From a virus, in the UHGV virus genome UHGV-0225830: 13,800 bases of DNA; one strand, given 5' to 3'. Positions 847-7,438 of the stretch are shown here, one piece after another. Position numbers and translations under genes: made by a program. Positions within the stretch are counted from its first letter, which is position 1; every line of letters starts with the position of its first letter. The notes under the pieces are model-generated. The model saw only the letters and a program-made list of their open reading frames with translations, made no database searches and was not told the DNA's origin.

Positions 847-935
847 TTAATTTTCAACTGAATGCGCTTGAAAATATAATCGGGGATAAAATGATTCTAG
901 CAATATTTTATCCCCCAACCGTAGAGAGTAAGCTT

Positions 936-2071: not shown

Positions 2072-2077
2072 TTTTTA

Positions 2078-2117
2078 GGTAGTAGGGGCTTAGCCCCTAC
2101 TACCTTTTTTATTTTTT
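2078..2117 (+). terminator. Rho-independent terminator
   Basis: Perfect 12-bp stem GGTAGTAGGGGC (2078-2089) / GCCCCTACTACC (2093-2104), loop TTA, followed by TTTTTTATTTTTT (2105-2117); sits 7 nt after the stop of the 1451-2071 gene. Confidence 0.8.
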
Positions 2118-2162
2118 CTCAGATATATATTACCTAGGGGAGAGTGAAATTTACGTTCACTC
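2117..2162 (+). promoter_or_regulatory. Copy 1 of a repeated promoter-like element plus 5'-leader hairpin
   Basis: 20-nt TCAGATATATATTACCTAGG (2119-2138) is identical to 5653-5672; then GAGAGT conserved; then a 7-bp hairpin GAGTGAA (2142-2148) / TTCACTC (2156-2162). ATG of the next gene (2191) is 53 nt after the 20-mer. Confidence 0.5.
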
Positions 2163-2190
2163 CATTAGTTATAGCCTAAAGGAGGATTAG

Positions 2191-3042: not shown

Positions 3043-3482
3043 AACCAAATACTACTAACGGCATTATGCTACTTTGTGATTCTGAAACGTTAGCAAACCG
3101 TATTCGTGGTTTGATGCAAGTACGTTGGCAGCAAAAGGTTCTCGTCGACTATGCTGCCCCGTTTGTTCACATTACCTGGTTGCCAGAAGCTAGTGATTTC
3201 AAAGAACGTATAACCACGAGAAGAATTAAAGAATGGTTATCGGCAATCATTAATAAACAGATTACCGTTATCAATTTCCAACTTTTCGGTACCGCTGAAG
3301 AACATGAAATCTTGAAACAGTGTTTAAGAGACTTGGGTCTTTCCTCTTCTGTTCGTGGTAGCTGCTATACGGCTTACTTTATCGGTTCGCTTGAACTGTT
3401 TAAGAATACGCTAATGCTTCAGCTAAAAGACGACTACAAACTTTTAGATAAAATCGATTTCGAATTCCCAGGCATGATTTAA
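3039..3482 (+). CDS. hypothetical protein (147 aa)
   Basis: ATG 3039 overlaps the upstream stop; SD-like GGAAGGG upstream; no recognised domain (a single H-x-T-x at residue 44 only, see rejected). Confidence 0.7.
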   Translation: MKPNTTNGIMLLCDSETLANRIRGLMQVRWQQKVLVDYAAPFVHITWLPEASDFKERITTRRIKEWLSAIINKQITVINFQLFGTAEEHEILKQCLRDLGLSSSVRGSCYTAYFIGSLELFKNTLMLQLKDDYKLLDKIDFEFPGMI

Positions 3483-3528
3483 GGAATCATAGCTTAATCA
3501 CCCCACCATTTACCTAAAGGAGCATTAA

Positions 3529-4044
3529 ATGTCAGTAAATATTAACATGAATCTTTATACTAAACGTGAACGTCAGATTCTGGCGAATCAACCTGGTGTT
3601 ACGACTATCGACGGTAAACCTATTGACCGTTTAAAAGTTATCGTTGCGCGAAATTGTCATGAACACGATTGGGACATTACCTACTTCCGTTGTTGTTCGG
3701 TCGCAAATGCGCTTACTCAACTCTCTAACTACCACTCAGGACCGCTATTAAAAGACTGGGTTTGGTTAGTGCCAAGAACACCCACAGCAATTGAGTATCC
3801 CTCTGGACTAGTTTATATTCGACCTGTCGCTTATCCAGAGCGTCTGAAAGAGTATCTTGAAGTTATCTGGAACCGTCCTCGTAAAGAGCTGGTGACGATT
3901 ATTAATTTACTGCAGCAGATCGAAATCCCCGGCGTTTCGAATTTGAAACTCACGTCTCGCGATATTAACCAGGCTTACTGGGAACTGGAGTGGACAGAAC
4001 CGAAATTCGAAAACACTAACCGTATTTTCTTGCACCGGGGGTAA
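3529..4044 (+). CDS. hypothetical protein (171 aa)
   Basis: ATG 3529 preceded by the extended SD ATTTACCTAAAGGAG (3508-3522), identical to 8641-8655. Confidence 0.75.
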   Translation: MSVNINMNLYTKRERQILANQPGVTTIDGKPIDRLKVIVARNCHEHDWDITYFRCCSVANALTQLSNYHSGPLLKDWVWLVPRTPTAIEYPSGLVYIRPVAYPERLKEYLEVIWNRPRKELVTIINLLQQIEIPGVSNLKLTSRDINQAYWELEWTEPKFENTNRIFLHRG

Positions 4045-4046
4045 AA

Positions 4047-4328
4047 ATGTTAGATTGGTTGTTGGGTTTAATTAACTCACGTCAACAGGAGCTTTATAAA
4101 GAAAACACGCGATTACGGCAGGAGCTTAGTAACAATCGTCAGACCAAACGACAATTAATTCGAATGGTAAAACAACAGGCGCGTTGTATACGTGATATCG
4201 ATTATCAGTATCACCGTCTGAATACCTTAGACCCAACAACAAAAGCCCTCGGTGGGACAATCGGACACGCACGTAAAGTCAGTCACGATGCGTTAGTTCG
4301 ATTAGATACAATAGAAGAGAAACTGTGA
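4047..4328 (+). CDS. hypothetical protein (93 aa), predicted coiled-coil N-terminal half
   Basis: ATG 4047 lies 2 nt after the upstream stop; heptad-like charged/hydrophobic pattern (LYKENTRLRQELSNNRQTKRQLIRMVKQQ). Confidence 0.65.
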   Translation: MLDWLLGLINSRQQELYKENTRLRQELSNNRQTKRQLIRMVKQQARCIRDIDYQYHRLNTLDPTTKALGGTIGHARKVSHDALVRLDTIEEKL

Positions 4329-4333
4329 TTAGC

Positions 4334-4358
4334 TCTCCCTCGGGAACACCGAGGGAGA
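4334..4358 (+). promoter_or_regulatory. Strong intercistronic RNA hairpin overlapping a Shine-Dalgarno sequence
   Basis: Perfect 10-bp stem TCTCCCTCGG (4334-4343) / CCGAGGGAGA (4349-4358), loop GAACA; no clean T-tract follows; the right arm contains GAGGGA, a candidate SD for the downstream gene. Confidence 0.55.
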
Positions 4359-4371
4359 TAAGGTGTTTTAC

Positions 4372-4761
4372 ATGATACGTTTAGTTTACTTAAAAAGGCG
4401 TTTGTCATTAAAAGCCCAACTGTTTGTTAACGAGAAAGTTAAAAACTGGCTGTGCGGTAAAAGGGTACAATATGTCGTTAAAGAAGGCGACTGGTATACG
4501 GAGGTTGTGACTTCCCCTAACGGTGAACTTATAAACGTTACTATTCGTGACGTTATGGTTAAGGTTGGTAGGGGAGGTGGTCGGTTGTTTGAATCGGAAA
4601 CTATAAGAGTCGCTGCTAAACAATTGAAAGATGGTCGAGTTATATTCAATGTTACCGCCCAGAAATACTACGACAATTTATTCGAGTGCCAACGAGCAAT
4701 GGACAGAATGACCCGTGAGATGCGAAGAATGCACATTACGGAGATCACAATAGGTGTTTAA
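4372..4761 (+). CDS. hypothetical protein (129 aa from ATG 4372; 132 aa if GTG 4363 is used)
   Basis: ORF 4363-4761; ATG 4372 is preceded by AGGTG (4361-4365); GTG 4363 is preceded by GAGGGA, which lies inside the hairpin. Confidence 0.65.
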   Translation: MIRLVYLKRRLSLKAQLFVNEKVKNWLCGKRVQYVVKEGDWYTEVVTSPNGELINVTIRDVMVKVGRGGGRLFESETIRVAAKQLKDGRVIFNVTAQKYYDNLFECQRAMDRMTREMRRMHITEITIGV

Positions 4762-5072
4762 TGATGGAAAATAAAATCGCGAACACATCGGCACCTGAGA
4801 ACATCGTCAATTATATTCTCAGAGGCGGGTTATTAGAAGACAACAAAGAAACGTGCGATAAACTCGTTTCTCAACTACTGCCTATTCGTTCAGAATACTG
4901 CGAAATCGTTATCTTAGGTTCCGAGTATTGTGTACGCTCTTACTGCCGACGTTTCGAAGCCCTACGTGTACCTCGTACGTTAGGTGGTGTGATCTTACTG
5001 ATCTCATCTTTTCAAGACGCCCATGTGCGTGTGGCGACCTGGATTGCCAGAGGAGGTAACAGTGGTTTTTAA
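4761..5072 (+). CDS. hypothetical protein (103 aa)
   Basis: ATG 4761 immediately follows the upstream TAA (TAATGATGG); AGGTG at 4752-4756. Confidence 0.65.
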   Translation: MMENKIANTSAPENIVNYILRGGLLEDNKETCDKLVSQLLPIRSEYCEIVILGSEYCVRSYCRRFEALRVPRTLGGVILLISSFQDAHVRVATWIARGGNSGF

Positions 5073-5370
5073 ATTGCTAGGTTTCGGAAAATGCAAAGAG
5101 TGCGCAAAGCACGAAGAATTTATCAAGCTATTAGAAGAAACAGTTGAAACACAACAAGAACTCATTTCTGAATACCGTGCGAAAACTGGTTCAGTAGAAT
5201 ATCTGACCATCCTTGTTTGTGCTATTGCTGAGTTGGGTTGTGAGGGGGAATTGCCTAAAGAGGAGATATTAAAACTATTAAAAGAAAAAACGTCGTTTTA
5301 CCGTAAAGATATTGAAGCGTGTAAACGTGAGGTTAAAAGAGCTAACTGGGAGGTTATCAATGAAGCGTGA
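5062..5370 (+). CDS. hypothetical protein (102 aa from GTG 5062; ORF track start ATG 5023 lacks an SD)
   Basis: GAGGAGG (5050-5056) sits 5 nt before GTG 5062; overlaps the upstream gene by 11 nt; paired Cys motifs (GKCKEC, ELGCEGE). Confidence 0.6.
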   Translation: MVFKLLGFGKCKECAKHEEFIKLLEETVETQQELISEYRAKTGSVEYLTILVCAIAELGCEGELPKEEILKLLKEKTSFYRKDIEACKREVKRANWEVINEA

Positions 5371-5641
5371 AACTATTGTATTTTGTCAAAACGGTGATGT
5401 AAAACAATACCGGGGCAAGAAGTTAATTCGTACGTTAGATTATCGCGAAGCAAAACGTTTCGTTGAAGAGTGTGCGTGGTTAATGCATTACGAAGGGAAC
5501 TATCGCGCCATCTTAGAAGCACCGCGTTTAGAACGTGCAGTTGCGCAGATGGCAATAGGTAATCCTAAGAACTGTTACCTGGCCCGTAAGCCCAAATACC
5601 TACAGCGTGTCTCGCTAGGCAGTTTTATTGCGGGTTTTTAA
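5360..5641 (+). CDS. hypothetical protein (93 aa from ATG 5360)
   Basis: ATG 5360 preceded by GGGAGG (5348-5353); overlaps the upstream stop (5368-5370) by 11 nt; the track start at 5312 has no SD. Confidence 0.65.
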   Translation: MKRETIVFCQNGDVKQYRGKKLIRTLDYREAKRFVEECAWLMHYEGNYRAILEAPRLERAVAQMAIGNPKNCYLARKPKYLQRVSLGSFIAGF

Positions 5642-5650
5642 TAAAAATAT

Positions 5651-5693
5651 TTTCAGATATATATTACCTAGGTGAGAGTTCAGTTACTCTCAC
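5651..5693 (+). promoter_or_regulatory. Copy 2 of the repeated promoter-like element plus 5'-leader hairpin
   Basis: TCAGATATATATTACCTAGG (5653-5672), then TGAGAGT, then an 8-bp hairpin GTGAGAGT (5672-5679) / ACTCTCAC (5686-5693); ATG 5723 is 51 nt after the 20-mer. Confidence 0.5.
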
Positions 5694-5722
5694 TTAACGA
5701 AACCATTTTAGGAGAATATACC

Positions 5723-6217
5723 ATGAACTTCACTAGACTTGATTACACTAACGAATTAGTCGACAAAGAAAAATACAAATTCACGATTGACTTGGGTTAC
5801 GGGCTGTGGGACGTAGAAAAAGATATTCTACACAAAGAATTCCGTGGGCAATTCGGTGCATTATTCTGCGCAGGATTCCGTAGAAATTCTATTGATATCG
5901 GTTATGGTGCAACACCGTATAGCGACGAAGAAATGTTTAAGCTGATAACACAGATTATCGGAACTCGTGTGGCTAAACGTTTTAATTATTCTAACGAACT
6001 TGTTTCGAAAGAACATTACAAGTTCACTGTTAGACTACCTGTTCCTCTCTTTAAAGAAGATAAGAATAGACTCTATAAAGCCCTACAAACCGAATTCGGT
6101 AAAACGCTCAAAGTAGGGTTCCGCAGTCGTAGTATCGATATCGGAATTAGCGTAGACGTGTGCAGTGACGATGACCTTTACGAATTAGTTTCGGAAGTTA
6201 TCGGAAAACACCTCTAA
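5723..6217 (+). CDS. hypothetical protein (164 aa) made of two tandem repeats of about 75 aa
   Basis: ATG 5723 preceded by AGGAG (5710-5714); the track start GTG 5672 lies inside the leader hairpin and is unlikely. The two halves align (YTNELVDKEKYKF...GFRRNSIDIG vs YSNELVSKEHYKF...GFRSRSIDIG). Confidence 0.75.
   Translation: MNFTRLDYTNELVDKEKYKFTIDLGYGLWDVEKDILHKEFRGQFGALFCAGFRRNSIDIGYGATPYSDEEMFKLITQIIGTRVAKRFNYSNELVSKEHYKFTVRLPVPLFKEDKNRLYKALQTEFGKTLKVGFRSRSIDIGISVDVCSDDDLYELVSEVIGKHL
5741..6205 (+). repeat. Intragenic tandem duplication (two units of about 74 codons, roughly 45% amino-acid identity by eye)
   Basis: Residues 7-80 and 88-161 of the 5723-6217 protein align without gaps. 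Confidence 0.7.
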
Positions 6218-6261: not shown

Positions 6262-7038
6262 ATGAAAACTATCGAGTTTAAGAATAGCAGTCTTTGGGCA
6301 TACACGCACATCATTACGAGTTTCCTGAAAAACGTTACTCCACATCTTGCTTATCAGATTTGTGGGAATGAGCTCACTATCGGTGGTTTTAACGAGGATG
6401 AATTAAAACGAGCAAAAGAGTTCATTGACGATGTTCTTCGTGGTGAAGCAACGTGTTTAGTTGCAAGTTACGTTGCTAAAGACAAAGGAAGATTAAACGT
6501 CATGGCAATTTTCAGATCGTTCTCCGAAAAAGTATACGAAGTTGAGAAGATTAGTCATACCGTTTATATTGTTTACTTTAAACGTTCGGCGGAGAAAAAC
6601 GCTGATAAAATTCTGGAGTATTTCGACTGTAACCCGGGGGAAGGTATGGATGTCTATACGCTCGGTTACGATGGGGTACCTCACCGGAATAACCTTATTC
6701 GCATTGACGAACCTTTTTCTGTCAATGACGATTCCTCGCCTATAGAGATGGTTCTGGTACACAAAGATCGTTTCGCGCATTACGACTCTGATACTATTCA
6801 ACGTGTCCTGAACAACGTTAATGTACAGTTTTCACAAACCGAGCACTTAGTACGTGCATGTCTTAGGTCTAATGGCACAACATCATTTTTCTTCGAACGT
6901 CAAACCGTTTGGCAAACTTATCTGGCTCTGATGGAAGAACTTGATAGGATCGAGCCAGTTCAGGTTGGTGCAAATTGCTTATATTGGATAAAAACAAAAG
7001 GGTTCATGAATGAAAACGCTCAATTCAGATTTGCGTGA
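6262..7038 (+). CDS. hypothetical protein (258 aa)
   Basis: ATG 6262 preceded by AAAGGA (6249-6254); overlaps the next gene by 29 nt; no recognised motif. Confidence 0.75.
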   Translation: MKTIEFKNSSLWAYTHIITSFLKNVTPHLAYQICGNELTIGGFNEDELKRAKEFIDDVLRGEATCLVASYVAKDKGRLNVMAIFRSFSEKVYEVEKISHTVYIVYFKRSAEKNADKILEYFDCNPGEGMDVYTLGYDGVPHRNNLIRIDEPFSVNDDSSPIEMVLVHKDRFAHYDSDTIQRVLNNVNVQFSQTEHLVRACLRSNGTTSFFFERQTVWQTYLALMEELDRIEPVQVGANCLYWIKTKGFMNENAQFRFA

Positions 7039-7438
7039 TTACATCCGTCAGTACCCAGCCAGTATTCCTGTACTGGCTTCGCTTACGCTTTCAGGTACTG
7101 ACGTTAACATTTTAACGGTGGAGCAGTTCCACGAGATAATAAAAACCGCCTATAACTCCATTACCGCAACGTCAGTACGTAAACGTTGCGATTATCCAGA
7201 CGGGGATTTCGGCACCGAGATGTTTACAGATTATGCGGTTGCGTTTCTGTTAGGGCGACACTGCCTCGATAAACTTAACACTGCTGTAGAAGGGGAAACA
7301 GTGACGGAAATTGTCAATGCTTGGCAGCAACGTATTCTGAACGACCCTTACTGCCGCCAAGCGTTGAAACGAATGTCCACAACGGCGATTACAAACGACC
7401 AGCGTGCTTTAGAGTTCTTTAAGCACAATTACAGCTAA
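7010..7438 (+). CDS. family B protein (142 aa), paralog of 8663-9094
   Basis: ATG 7010 preceded by AAAAGGG (6996-7002). Aligns with the 8663 protein: LN.D.R.YIR..P, YP.G..G..M, DP, MS.T in the same order. Confidence 0.75.
   Translation: MKTLNSDLRDYIRQYPASIPVLASLTLSGTDVNILTVEQFHEIIKTAYNSITATSVRKRCDYPDGDFGTEMFTDYAVAFLLGRHCLDKLNTAVEGETVTEIVNAWQQRILNDPYCRQALKRMSTTAITNDQRALEFFKHNYS

What the first reader, a model, noticed from the sequence alone, without database searches (positions are those of the whole stretch)
4334..4372. Perfect 10-bp hairpin sequestering a Shine-Dalgarno sequence between two genes
TCTCCCTCGG/CCGAGGGAGA with a 5-nt loop sits between the stop at 4328 and the next start. Its right arm contains GAGGGA, the SD for the GTG start at 4363, while a second SD (AGGTG) outside the stem serves ATG 4372. 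There is no clean U-tract, so it is more likely a translational control, processing or mRNA-stability element than a terminator. Start-site choice could depend on whether the hairpin is folded.
Basis: seen in the sequence. Interest (0 to 1): 0.4.

Follow-up and report, generated by a model that had tools for sequence, protein, structure and literature searches.

The report
Conserved intercistronic mRNA hairpin in jumbo phage
A real, evolutionarily maintained RNA stem-loop sits between a conserved gene and a shuffling array of small paralogous genes in an uncharacterised Salmonella jumbo phage. It does not hide the ribosome-binding site of the next gene, and it is most likely an ordinary mRNA stability or partition element.

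Summary
The perfect 10-bp hairpin (4334-4343/4349-4358, loop GAACA) is real and non-random. A hairpin occupies this position in every relative that could be fetched (19 distinct sequence versions).

Evidence for selection on the stem:
- Stem positions vary far less than neighbouring synonymous sites (1/20 vs 83/222), while the loop is free to vary.
- A second allele (type B, CCCCTCTCAGG/CCTGAGAGGGG) keeps the helix through four double-sided changes.

The "SD-sequestering / start-choice" reading fails:
- GTG 4363 is GCG in one relative and is followed by an in-frame TAA in another.
- The conserved start is ATG 4372. Its SD (UAAGG, 4359-4363) lies just outside the stem in both alleles.
- No alternative pairing exists, so the helix is constitutive.

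There is no U-tract in either allele, whereas the window's other three perfect ≥10-bp hairpins all have one.

The hairpin always lies 5-6 nt after the stop of a conserved 93-aa gene, at the head of a variable tandem array of 1-3 tightly coupled paralogous genes. It is internal to an operon bounded by chimallivirus early-promoter motifs.

Best reading: a constitutive intercistronic decay barrier or insulator. This is a known kind of element, and its function is untested here.

The parts
4047..4328 (+). Conserved 93-aa gene (coiled-coil-like, function unknown). Its TGA stop (4326-4328) lies 5 nt before the stem.
   Evidence: ORF list. 97-99% identical in relatives. N-terminal match to phrog_24666. 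The stop-to-stem distance is constant at 5-6 nt in all 19 sequence versions.
4329..4333 (+). Single-stranded spacer TTAGC between the stop codon and the stem.
   Evidence: Invariant (0/5 variable sites) among type-A relatives. The type-B allele has TATAA or TATAG of the same length.
4334..4343 (+). Left (5') arm TCTCCCTCGG of the hairpin.
   Evidence: The only variable site among 12 type-A sequences is the outermost T->A.
4344..4348 (+). Loop GAACA, unconstrained.
   Evidence: Loops seen in relatives are GAACA, GAACG, GATTA, GAAAA and TTTTC (5/5 sites variable). GAAAA and TTTTC are exact reverse complements in otherwise identical flanks.
4349..4358 (+). Right (3') arm CCGAGGGAGA. It is purine-rich and SD-like but is not the SD in use.
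   Evidence: 0/10 variable sites. Pair probabilities are 0.83-1.0. It lies 14-23 nt upstream of the conserved ATG.
4359..4365 (+). Functional Shine-Dalgarno region UAAGG(UG), immediately 3' of the stem and outside it.
   Evidence: UAAGG is invariant in type A. Type B has GGAG or AGGAG in the same place. There are 8 nt between G4363 and the A of ATG 4372. The predicted unpaired probability is moderate and inconsistent across relatives, so there is no conserved sequestration.
4363..4365 (+). It is not a conserved start.
   Evidence: It is GCG in L007/L013. In L022 the GTG is followed by ATT TAA before the ATG.
4372..4761 (+). Gene A (129 aa), first and only member here of a variable tandem array of paralogous small genes. 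The start is ATG 4372.
   Evidence: Orthologues are 81-98% identical in relatives. Paralogue B is 41% identical (E = 2e-26). Arrays seen are A, B, B-A, B-C', C-B-A and D-A. There is no Pfam or PDB match. The predicted fold is helix, beta-meander, helix.
2113..2138 (+). Context: early-promoter-like motif TTTTCTCAGATATATATTACCTAGG, which opens the operon containing the hairpin. It lies just after the strong terminator at 2077-2105.
   Evidence: The exact 14-mer ATATATTACCTAGG occurs twice in the window against 0.13 expected. The same motif is present in SPN3US and all relatives. It matches the phiKZ/201phi2-1 early consensus TATATTAC (PMC7058600, Table 2).
5647..5672 (+). Context: second copy of the early-promoter-like motif, marking the next transcription unit.

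Best explanation
The element is a constitutively folded stem-loop in the polycistronic mRNA of a roughly 225-kb Salmonella/Shigella-associated jumbo phage whose nearest named relatives are Chimalliviridae.

Position. It lies in a 43-nt gap between a conserved 93-aa gene and the first gene of a rapidly shuffling tandem array of small paralogues. All other junctions in that block are 3 nt or less, or overlap.

Proposed mechanism (inferred). The GC-rich helix (about -20 kcal/mol) is a physical barrier that partitions the transcript.
- It stops host 3'->5' exonucleases (PNPase, RNase II) that enter after endonucleolytic cuts downstream. The upstream conserved genes would therefore outlive the accessory array, as in the malE-malF and puf model.
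- Because it abuts the SD, it may also cap and insulate the translation-initiation region of whichever array gene comes first, as in the papBA model.

What it is not. It is not a switch, it does not sequester the SD in use, and it is not a canonical intrinsic terminator.

Shown: the existence of the helix, purifying selection on it, its positional constancy, the placement of the SD and start outside the helix, and the lack of a U-tract.

Inferred: the barrier function and which side it protects.
For: 1. The helix is real and stable and far beyond chance.
2. All 19 distinct sequence versions from the 27 related contigs fetched (some may be duplicate assemblies of one phage) carry a 9-11-bp perfect helix at the same place.
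3. Within type A, 1/20 stem sites vary against 83/222 third-codon sites in the two flanking genes (binomial P = 0.0011, Fisher P = 0.0025). The loop varies at 5/5 sites.
4. The type-B allele keeps the helix with four pairs changed on both sides plus an extra pair. 96.9% of cells are paired, against 39-60% when partners are slid. The covariation score is 0.298 against 0.145 +/- 0.027, reached by 0/500 shuffles.
5. One type-B variant (L033) has a G.U closing pair that pairs only in + strand RNA.
6. No U-tract is maintained. Type A has UAAGGUG(A/U)UUU and type B has GGAGUAAC or AGGAGAAAG. The window's other three perfect >=10-bp hairpins are all followed by T-runs.
7. The hairpin stays at the head of the array whichever paralogue follows. 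Junctions within arrays (2-3 nt) have no hairpin.
8. It is internal to a unit bounded by early-promoter motifs at 2125 and 5659, with no other structure in between.
9. The family is found in Salmonella and Shigella assemblies. In that host group, protective 3' and 5' hairpins within operons are documented and conserved (PMC5927463).
Against: - There are no RNA data. No 3' or 5' ends, half-lives or expression ratios are available for this phage.
- The covariation rests on essentially one A/B split, and the alignment was fitted to the structure.
- A loop inversion (GAAAA<->TTTTC) shows that DNA-level hairpin template switching occurs here. That process can keep the arms complementary without RNA-level selection.
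- The tight apposition of stem and SD, preserved in both alleles and carried as a unit in front of different genes, could equally mean the element acts on translation initiation.
- Termination rules for chimallivirus RNA polymerases are incompletely known. In 201phi2-1 only 52 of 132 mapped 3' ends were predicted intrinsic terminators (PMC11512511).
Confidence: 0.45

Rival explanations
1. Non-canonical or weak transcription terminator, pause site or attenuator for the phage's own multisubunit RNA polymerases. It would lower transcription of the accessory array relative to the conserved upstream genes.
For: It is a GC-rich hairpin immediately after a stop codon. There is no terminator ahead of the next early promoter at 5659, so something may need to limit read-through. 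In the chimallivirus 201phi2-1, 80 of 132 mapped 3' ends were not ARNold-type intrinsic terminators (PMC11512511).
Against: The same phage uses clear hairpin+T-run terminators elsewhere (2077, 9101, 10608, 12615). Neither allele maintains a U-tract, and type B is followed by purines. Genes 4372-5641, including the conserved phrog_9649 gene, have no recognisable promoter of their own, so termination cannot be efficient.
Confidence: 0.2
2. Translation-level element of the downstream gene. A rigid helix directly 5' of the SD would insulate the initiation region from upstream sequence or from ribosomes terminating at the upstream UGA. This would decouple the array from the 93-aa gene, or damp initiation sterically.
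For: The stem ends 0-2 nt before the SD in both alleles. The hairpin+SD travels as a unit in front of three different first genes (A, B, C). All other junctions in the block are translationally coupled (<=3 nt), and only this one is separated. A ribosome stopped at UGA, 5 nt from the stem, would reach only the outer pairs (inference from ribosome footprint size).
Against: The SD and start are not in the helix, and their predicted accessibility shows no conserved pattern. Gene A is found without any hairpin when it is second in the array (L008, L026). The unconstrained and even inverted loop argues against a specific protein operator.
Confidence: 0.17
3. One reading: the right arm GAGGGA is the SD for a GTG start at 4363 and is sequestered, so folding decides between GTG and ATG starts.
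For: In the window alone the geometry fits (GGAG 4354-4357, then 5 nt, then GTG 4363). GTG is present in most type-A relatives.
Against: GTG is GCG in L007/L013. In L022 the GTG is followed by an in-frame TAA. Type B has no equivalent start. The codons between GTG and ATG change non-synonymously. The database gene calls give the 129-aa product from the ATG. The helix is constitutive, with no alternative partner.
Confidence: 0.03
4. DNA-level palindrome: either a recombination or template-switch hotspot marking the boundary where array cassettes are exchanged (PeSL-like), or the binding site of a dimeric protein.
For: Homology between genomes with different arrays breaks exactly after the stop codon and resumes near the next start. 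The loop inversion GAAAA<->TTTTC shows the DNA hairpin is active in replication or recombination. Array content varies widely.
Against: The element is single-copy per genome in the pattern scan. No hairpins lie between array members, so there are no repeated substrates for PeSL-type exchange, and there is no adjacent promoter. Two alleles with different arm sequences argue against a sequence-specific protein site. The G.U pair in L033 is strand-specific.
Confidence: 0.1
5. A functionless remnant, for example of a former terminator whose T-tract was replaced when the array was inserted.
For: More distant relatives (Huxley, SPN3US, Asesino) have no intergenic gap or hairpin at this junction.
Against: The stem is significantly more conserved than synonymous sites, and the helix is preserved across two alleles and all 19 sequence versions.
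Confidence: 0.05

Closest known systems
Intercistronic protective stem-loops of polycistronic mRNAs (malE-malF, puf 'decay terminator', papBA 5' hairpin; genome-wide in E. coli and Salmonella, Dar & Sorek 2018, PMC5927463; SRPS operons, PMC4423207)
   Same: A stable GC-rich helix without a U-tract, placed between cistrons inside an operon just after a stop codon. The structure is conserved while the loop is free. The host group (Enterobacteriaceae) relies on RNase E plus 3'->5' exonucleases.
   Different: The element belongs to a jumbo-phage operon, probably transcribed by phage RNAPs in a phage nucleus. It is single-copy and not a REP repeat. It abuts the next SD. Function is not demonstrated: no 3' ends or half-lives are available.
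Rho-independent (intrinsic) terminators, including those elsewhere in this window (2077-2105, 9101-9128, 10608-10628, 12615-12642)
   Same: A GC-rich perfect stem of similar length with a short loop, located right after a stop codon.
   Different: No U-tract in either allele. It is followed directly by an SD and a coupled gene block that has no promoter of its own.
RBS-sequestering hairpins of phage mRNAs (T4 e, soc and I-TevI early transcripts; from the analyst's own knowledge)
   Same: A phage intergenic hairpin next to a translation start, with an SD-like purine run in one arm.
   Different: The SD and start codon in use lie outside the helix. No promoter or alternative fold could open it. 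The in-helix SD-like run serves no conserved start.
PeSL promoter-terminator cassettes of T4-like phages (PMC2839356, PMC4122927)
   Same: A stem-loop located at the edge of a hyperplastic region where small ORFan genes are gained, lost and swapped.
   Different: No promoter is attached. There is one copy per genome rather than many dispersed homologous copies. No copies lie between the shuffled genes.

Membership tests
Rho-independent terminator | GC-rich stem-loop | tested here: met
   10 bp, 7 G-C pairs, about -20 kcal/mol.
Rho-independent terminator | U-tract (>=5 U in about 8 nt) directly after the stem | tested here: not met
   Not called by the terminator scan. The tail is UAAGGUGU. The type-B tail is GGAGUAAC or AGGAGAAA.
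Rho-independent terminator | Lies at the end of a transcription unit | tested here: inconclusive
   Downstream genes 4372-5641 have no recognisable promoter. The next early-promoter motif is at 5659. No RNA data are available.
SD-sequestering translational hairpin / riboregulator | The SD and/or start codon of the expressed gene is base-paired in the helix | tested here: not met
   The conserved SD (UAAGG, GGAG) and the ATG lie outside the stem in all 19 versions. GTG 4363 is not conserved.
SD-sequestering translational hairpin / riboregulator | An alternative state (competing pairing, internal promoter, ligand or temperature lability) that frees the site | tested here: not met
   Pair probabilities are 0.83-1.0 in a 411-nt context. 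The only nearby complementary 7-mer (4246-4252) is not conserved in relatives.
Intercistronic mRNA-stabilising (decay-barrier) hairpin | Stable helix between cistrons of one operon, without terminator features | tested here: met
Intercistronic mRNA-stabilising (decay-barrier) hairpin | Structure conserved by selection | tested here: met
   1/20 stem sites against 83/222 synonymous-type sites are variable. Four double-sided changes separate the alleles. Caveat: this is one lineage split, and DNA template switching is possible.
Intercistronic mRNA-stabilising (decay-barrier) hairpin | Processed 3' (or 5') ends at the helix and different half-lives of the flanking segments | not testable with these tools
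   No transcriptome exists for this phage clade.
REP/BIME-type repeated extragenic palindromes | Many dispersed copies of a consensus palindrome | tested here: not met
   The exact-stem scan of IMG/VR gave one site per related genome. The covariance model found no further copies in 126 kb of related loci.
PeSL cassettes (T4-like phages) | Stem-loop fused to an early promoter, with multiple homologous copies flanking variable genes | tested here: not met
   No ATATATTAC-type or sigma70-type promoter lies between the stem and the start. It is single-copy, with no hairpins within arrays.
boxB/nut-type antitermination hairpin | Short stem with a conserved GNRNA-like pentaloop bound by an N-type peptide | tested here: not met
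   Loops are GAACA, GAACG, GATTA, GAAAA and the inverted TTTTC. Type B has 4-nt loops.
Recoding signal (bacterial SECIS, readthrough or frameshift stimulator) | Structure 3' of a stop or slippery site with an open extension frame that is conserved | tested here: not met
   Read-through in type A ends at TAA 4359-4361. The +1 frame is closed by TAG 4330-4332. The frame relation to the next gene differs between type A (46 nt) and type B (45 nt). All read directly.
Any Rfam family | Score above the gathering threshold | tested here: not met
   No hit at gathering threshold in the window. The best E-values are 2.5-6.6 at 9-14 bits.

The most novel reading that the evidence does not exclude
The hairpin+SD is a fixed 'landing pad' module heading a fast-evolving tandem array of paralogous small genes in a new clade of Salmonella/Shigella-associated jumbo phages. 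It would serve both as an expression insulator that gives any incoming first gene a standard initiation context, and as the DNA break-point for cassette exchange. That would make it a promoter-less functional analogue of T4 PeSLs in phages whose closest named relatives form a nucleus.
Probability: 0.12. Interest if true: 0.5.

Novelty: new member of a known kind. Interest (0 to 1): 0.25.

Why it matters
If the barrier model is right, it would show that phages of this group tune expression inside operons through host mRNA-decay rules as well as through their own RNA polymerases. Their closest named relatives (Chimalliviridae) separate transcription from translation inside a phage nucleus. The element also marks a clear hotspot of gene gain and loss in an unstudied group of ~225-kb phages found in Salmonella and Shigella isolate assemblies. 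For annotation, it settles the start of the downstream gene as ATG 4372, not GTG 4363. In itself the element is a common type of feature.

Tried and rejected
- **GenBank phage searches.** Megablast of 3500-5500 and tblastn of gene A found nothing. Only flanking genes find SPN3US, phiEaH2 and Huxley, at 41-57% aa identity.
- **Slot genes in distant relatives.** Gene A was compared with the genes occupying the same slot in SPN3US and Asesino. There was no similarity.
- **Pfam, PHROGs and structure.** There was no Pfam hit for genes A or B, and only a marginal PHROG 'HNH endonuclease' hit (E = 0.004) that was not pursued as real. The AlphaFold model (pLDDT 79) gave no PDB match at E <= 0.001 and only two unnamed viral proteins in BFVD, so the function stays unknown.
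- **Rfam.** No family matched.
- **Riboswitch- or attenuator-like alternative pairing.** None is conserved.
- **boxB/N-type hairpin.** Rejected because of loop variation and inversion.
- **SECIS, readthrough or frameshift.** Rejected from the reading frames.
- **RNase III site.** The stem is too short (10 bp; from general knowledge).
- **RNase E RN|WUU site in the spacer.** It fits loosely in type A (GA|UUA) but not in type B (GA|UAU), so it is not used as evidence.
- **Late TATG-type promoter (PMC7598289).** TATG is present before the start only in some type-B versions and not in type A, so this was rejected.
- **MAFFT alignment of types A and B.** It put the arms out of register. A covariance-model alignment was used instead, with the stated bias.

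Full report
**1. Observation.**
The window reads ...GAAACTG TGA TTAGC TCTCCCTCGG GAACA CCGAGGGAGA TAAGGTGTTTTAC ATG ATA....
- The stop of the 93-aa ORF is at 4326-4328.
- The arms are 4334-4343 and 4349-4358, a perfect 10 bp (I11), and the loop is 5 nt.
- GTG 4363 and ATG 4372 are in frame.
- A 55-nt RNA folds at -23.8 kcal/mol against -11.4 +/- 2.6 for shuffles (z = -4.7).
- In a 411-nt context the pairs have probability 0.83-1.0.
- Perfect >=10-bp hairpins with 3-8-nt loops occur at four places in the window, against 0.08 expected per shuffle.
- All four are intergenic. The other three (2077, 9101, 12615) are followed by T-runs and are called terminator-like, while this one is not.

**2. Where the window comes from.**
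There is no nucleotide match in GenBank phages. The flanking genes 3529-4044 (phrog_8180) and 4761-5072 (phrog_9649) find only the jumbo phages phiEaH2, Asesino, Stratton, SPN3US and Huxley/Machina, at 41-57% aa identity. These genera belong to Chimalliviridae.

The motif TTTTC(TC)AGATATATATTACCTAGG occurs at 2113-2138 and 5647-5672. It is also present in SPN3US and in every relative. It matches the early (virion-RNAP) promoter consensus TATATTAC of phiKZ and 201phi2-1 (PMC7058600, Table 2; PMC7598289).

The hairpin is therefore internal to a unit running from about 2125, just after the strong terminator at 2077-2105, to about 5659. Inside that unit the gene junctions are overlaps or gaps of 3 nt or less. 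The two exceptions are a 46-nt gap at 3482/3529 and the 43-nt gap holding the hairpin.

**3. Relatives and the gene array.**
Closer relatives were collected from four sources.
- IMG/VR.
- JGI/ENA metagenomes.
- The 5.8-billion-protein collection.
- Contig look-ups.

They are ~222-238-kb contigs, several from Salmonella enterica and Shigella flexneri isolate assemblies. The downstream gene (gene A, 129 aa) belongs to a small family confined to this clade. Paralogue B (124 aa) is 41% identical (E = 2e-26). A third paralogue, C (101-102 aa), is more distant.

The slot after the conserved 93-aa gene holds different arrays in different genomes.
- A alone: the window and most relatives.
- B alone: L028, L030, L031 and L039-42.
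- B-A: L008.
- B-C': L032 and L033.
- C-B-A: L026.
- A C/B deletion fusion followed by A: L034.

These arrays are shown. In Huxley the two conserved flanking genes abut with no array at all. SPN3US and Asesino carry unrelated genes in the slot. The family has no Pfam or PDB match. The AlphaFold model (pLDDT 79) is a helix, a beta-meander and a helix, and its only matches at E <= 0.001 are two unnamed viral proteins in BFVD.

**4. The hairpin in relatives.**
All 19 distinct sequence versions have a perfect 9-11-bp helix starting 5-6 nt after the TGA of the 93-aa gene and ending 0-2 nt before an SD. There are two alleles.
- Type A: (T/A)CTCCCTCGG-N5-CCGAGGGAGA, followed by TAAGG.
- Type B: CCCCTCTCAGG-N4-CCTGAGAGGG(G/A), followed by GGAG or AGGAG.

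Type B precedes either gene B or gene C. Gene A lacks any hairpin when it is second or third in an array. The hairpin is therefore tied to the junction at the head of the array, not to a particular gene.

Among 12 type-A sequences, variable sites are distributed as follows.

| Region | Variable sites |
|---|---|
| Spacer | 0/5 |
| Left arm | 1/10 (outermost base) |
| Loop | 5/5 |
| Right arm | 0/10 |
| Post-stem to ATG | 3/13 |
| Third-codon positions, 93-aa gene | 33/93 |
| Third-codon positions, gene A | 50/129 |

For the stem, P(<=1 of 20) = 0.0011 and Fisher P = 0.0025.

A covariance model built on type A recovers type B at E about 1e-4. On that alignment:
- 96.9% of cells pair, against 39-60% when partners are slid.
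- Four pairs change on both sides (U-A<->C-G twice, C-G<->U-A, G-C<->A-U).
- The covariation score is 0.298 against 0.145 +/- 0.027, reached by 0/500 shuffles.

Caveats apply. The alignment is fitted to the structure, and the A/B difference is essentially one evolutionary split. The L029/L036 loop GAAAA and the L010/L035 loop TTTTC are exact reverse complements in identical flanks. This shows DNA-level hairpin template switching, which can keep arms complementary without RNA-level selection. Two points argue against a purely DNA explanation: arm sequence is conserved within each type, and L033 has a G.U closing pair that pairs only in the + strand RNA.

**5.
Five observations count against the GTG start.
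- It is GCG in L007/L013.
- In L022 the sequence is GTG ATT TAA AAG ATG, so an in-frame stop separates GTG from the ATG.
- Type B offers no alternative start.
- The differences between GTG and ATG (TTT/ATT, TAC/TGC) are non-synonymous.
- The database gene calls give a 129-aa product beginning 44 nt after the upstream stop.

The conserved SD (UAAGG at 4359-4363, with 8 nt between G4363 and the ATG) is outside the helix. Its predicted accessibility is moderate and inconsistent between relatives. The only nearby sequence complementary to an arm (CCCTCGG at 4246-4252) is not conserved. There is therefore neither sequestration of the SD in use nor a plausible switch.

**6. What it most likely does.**
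- The loop is unconstrained and can even be inverted. This argues against a loop-reading protein of the boxB/N or operator type.
- The missing U-tract in both alleles, in a phage that otherwise uses hairpin+T-run terminators, argues against a canonical terminator.
- Single-copy status argues against REP- or PeSL-like repeats.
- Reading frames exclude a recoding signal.

What remains is a sequence-independent physical role for a stable helix at one specific cistron boundary. In Enterobacteriaceae such helices are documented to block PNPase and RNase II after downstream endonucleolytic cleavage, stabilising the upstream segment. When they lie at a new 5' end, they protect the downstream segment from RNase E (PMC5927463).

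I therefore favour a constitutive decay-barrier or partition element that lets the conserved upstream genes and the accessory array be expressed at different levels (confidence about 0.45). The rivals are:
- a weak, non-canonical attenuator for the phage RNAPs (about 0.2; chimallivirus 3' ends are often non-canonical, PMC11512511);
- a translation-initiation insulator or decoupler (about 0.17, favoured by the invariant stem-SD apposition);
- a DNA-level recombination boundary (about 0.1);
- a functionless remnant (about 0.05);

None of these can be separated without RNA data.

**7. Novelty and score.**
Intercistronic protective or partition hairpins are a well-known kind of element. This is a new, well-conserved instance in an uncharacterised jumbo-phage clade. 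Its location at the head of a shuffling paralogue array is interesting but not surprising. Interest is 0.25.

Noticed in passing
window 2113-2166 and 5647-5696; also L003 (SPN3US) 6320-6380 and all related loci: A chimallivirus early-promoter-like motif, TTTTC(TC)AGATATATATTACCTAGG, occurs twice and is conserved down to SPN3US. Each copy is followed at once by a leader hairpin (GGGAGAGTGAA...TTCACTCC; GGTGAGAGT...ACTCTCAC). Among relatives the hairpin shows compensatory changes (GAGAGTGAA/TTCACTC vs GAGAGCGAA/TTCGCTC) and free loops. This looks like a conserved 5'-terminal stem-loop on early transcripts.
   Followed up: partly
window 882-915 (ORF 891-1451); L008 about 1125-1165: The 11-12-bp hairpin GGGGATAAAAT(G)/(C)ATTTTATCCCC does contain the SD-like GGGG and the ATG 891 of the next gene. 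In L008 the helix is kept with an A-U->G-C double change and a G.U pair.
   Followed up: partly
L029/L036 vs L010/L035, the position equivalent to window 4344-4348: Loops GAAAA and TTTTC are exact reverse complements between otherwise identical flanks. This is a spacer inversion within the inverted repeat, the signature of hairpin-mediated template switching in DNA.
   Followed up: yes
window 4372-4761 and the equivalent slot in L008, L026, L028, L032, L034: A variable tandem array of 1-3 paralogous small genes (A 129 aa, B 121-124 aa, C 101-102 aa, plus a C/B deletion fusion). It is confined to this phage clade and absent from Huxley. The predicted fold is helix, beta-meander, helix, with no known homologue. 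It is a local hotspot of gene gain and loss.
   Followed up: partly
window 3503-3528 and 8640-8662: The repeated motif ATTTACCTAAAGGAG(C/T)ATTAAA(A)TG lies directly upstream of two genes (3529 and 8663). A related CCTAAAGGAGGATTAGATG precedes 2191. It could be a shared translation-initiation region or a second promoter class.
   Followed up: no
whole window; The window belongs to a clade of ~222-238-kb phages with no close relative in GenBank phage records (best 57% aa to phiEaH2). The clade is nevertheless present as large contigs in several Salmonella enterica and Shigella flexneri isolate assemblies and in metagenomes.
   Followed up: partly
L006 2805-2835 (IMGVR_UViG_3300021387_000252, unrelated 60-kb GC-rich viral contig): The identical 10-bp stem TCTCCCTCGG/CCGAGGGAGA occurs here, with the upstream gene's TAA stop in the loop and an SD+ATG about 30 nt downstream. 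It is probably a chance or convergent match.
   Followed up: no
window 7010-7438 vs 8663-9094; 5720-6217; 7460-8593; 891-1451, 9265-10113, 10127-10603: The translations suggest further paralogous gene pairs and internally duplicated genes. Two 142/143-aa proteins share N-terminal motifs. The 5720-6217 product has a two-fold internal repeat. Several proteins share an N-terminal 'LIN...EP' region.
   Followed up: no
window 4761-5641: The three ORFs as listed overlap by 50-59 nt (4761-5072, 5023-5370, 5312-5641). In relatives the called genes overlap by only about 11 nt, so the true starts of the 5023 and 5312 ORFs are probably further downstream.
   Followed up: no
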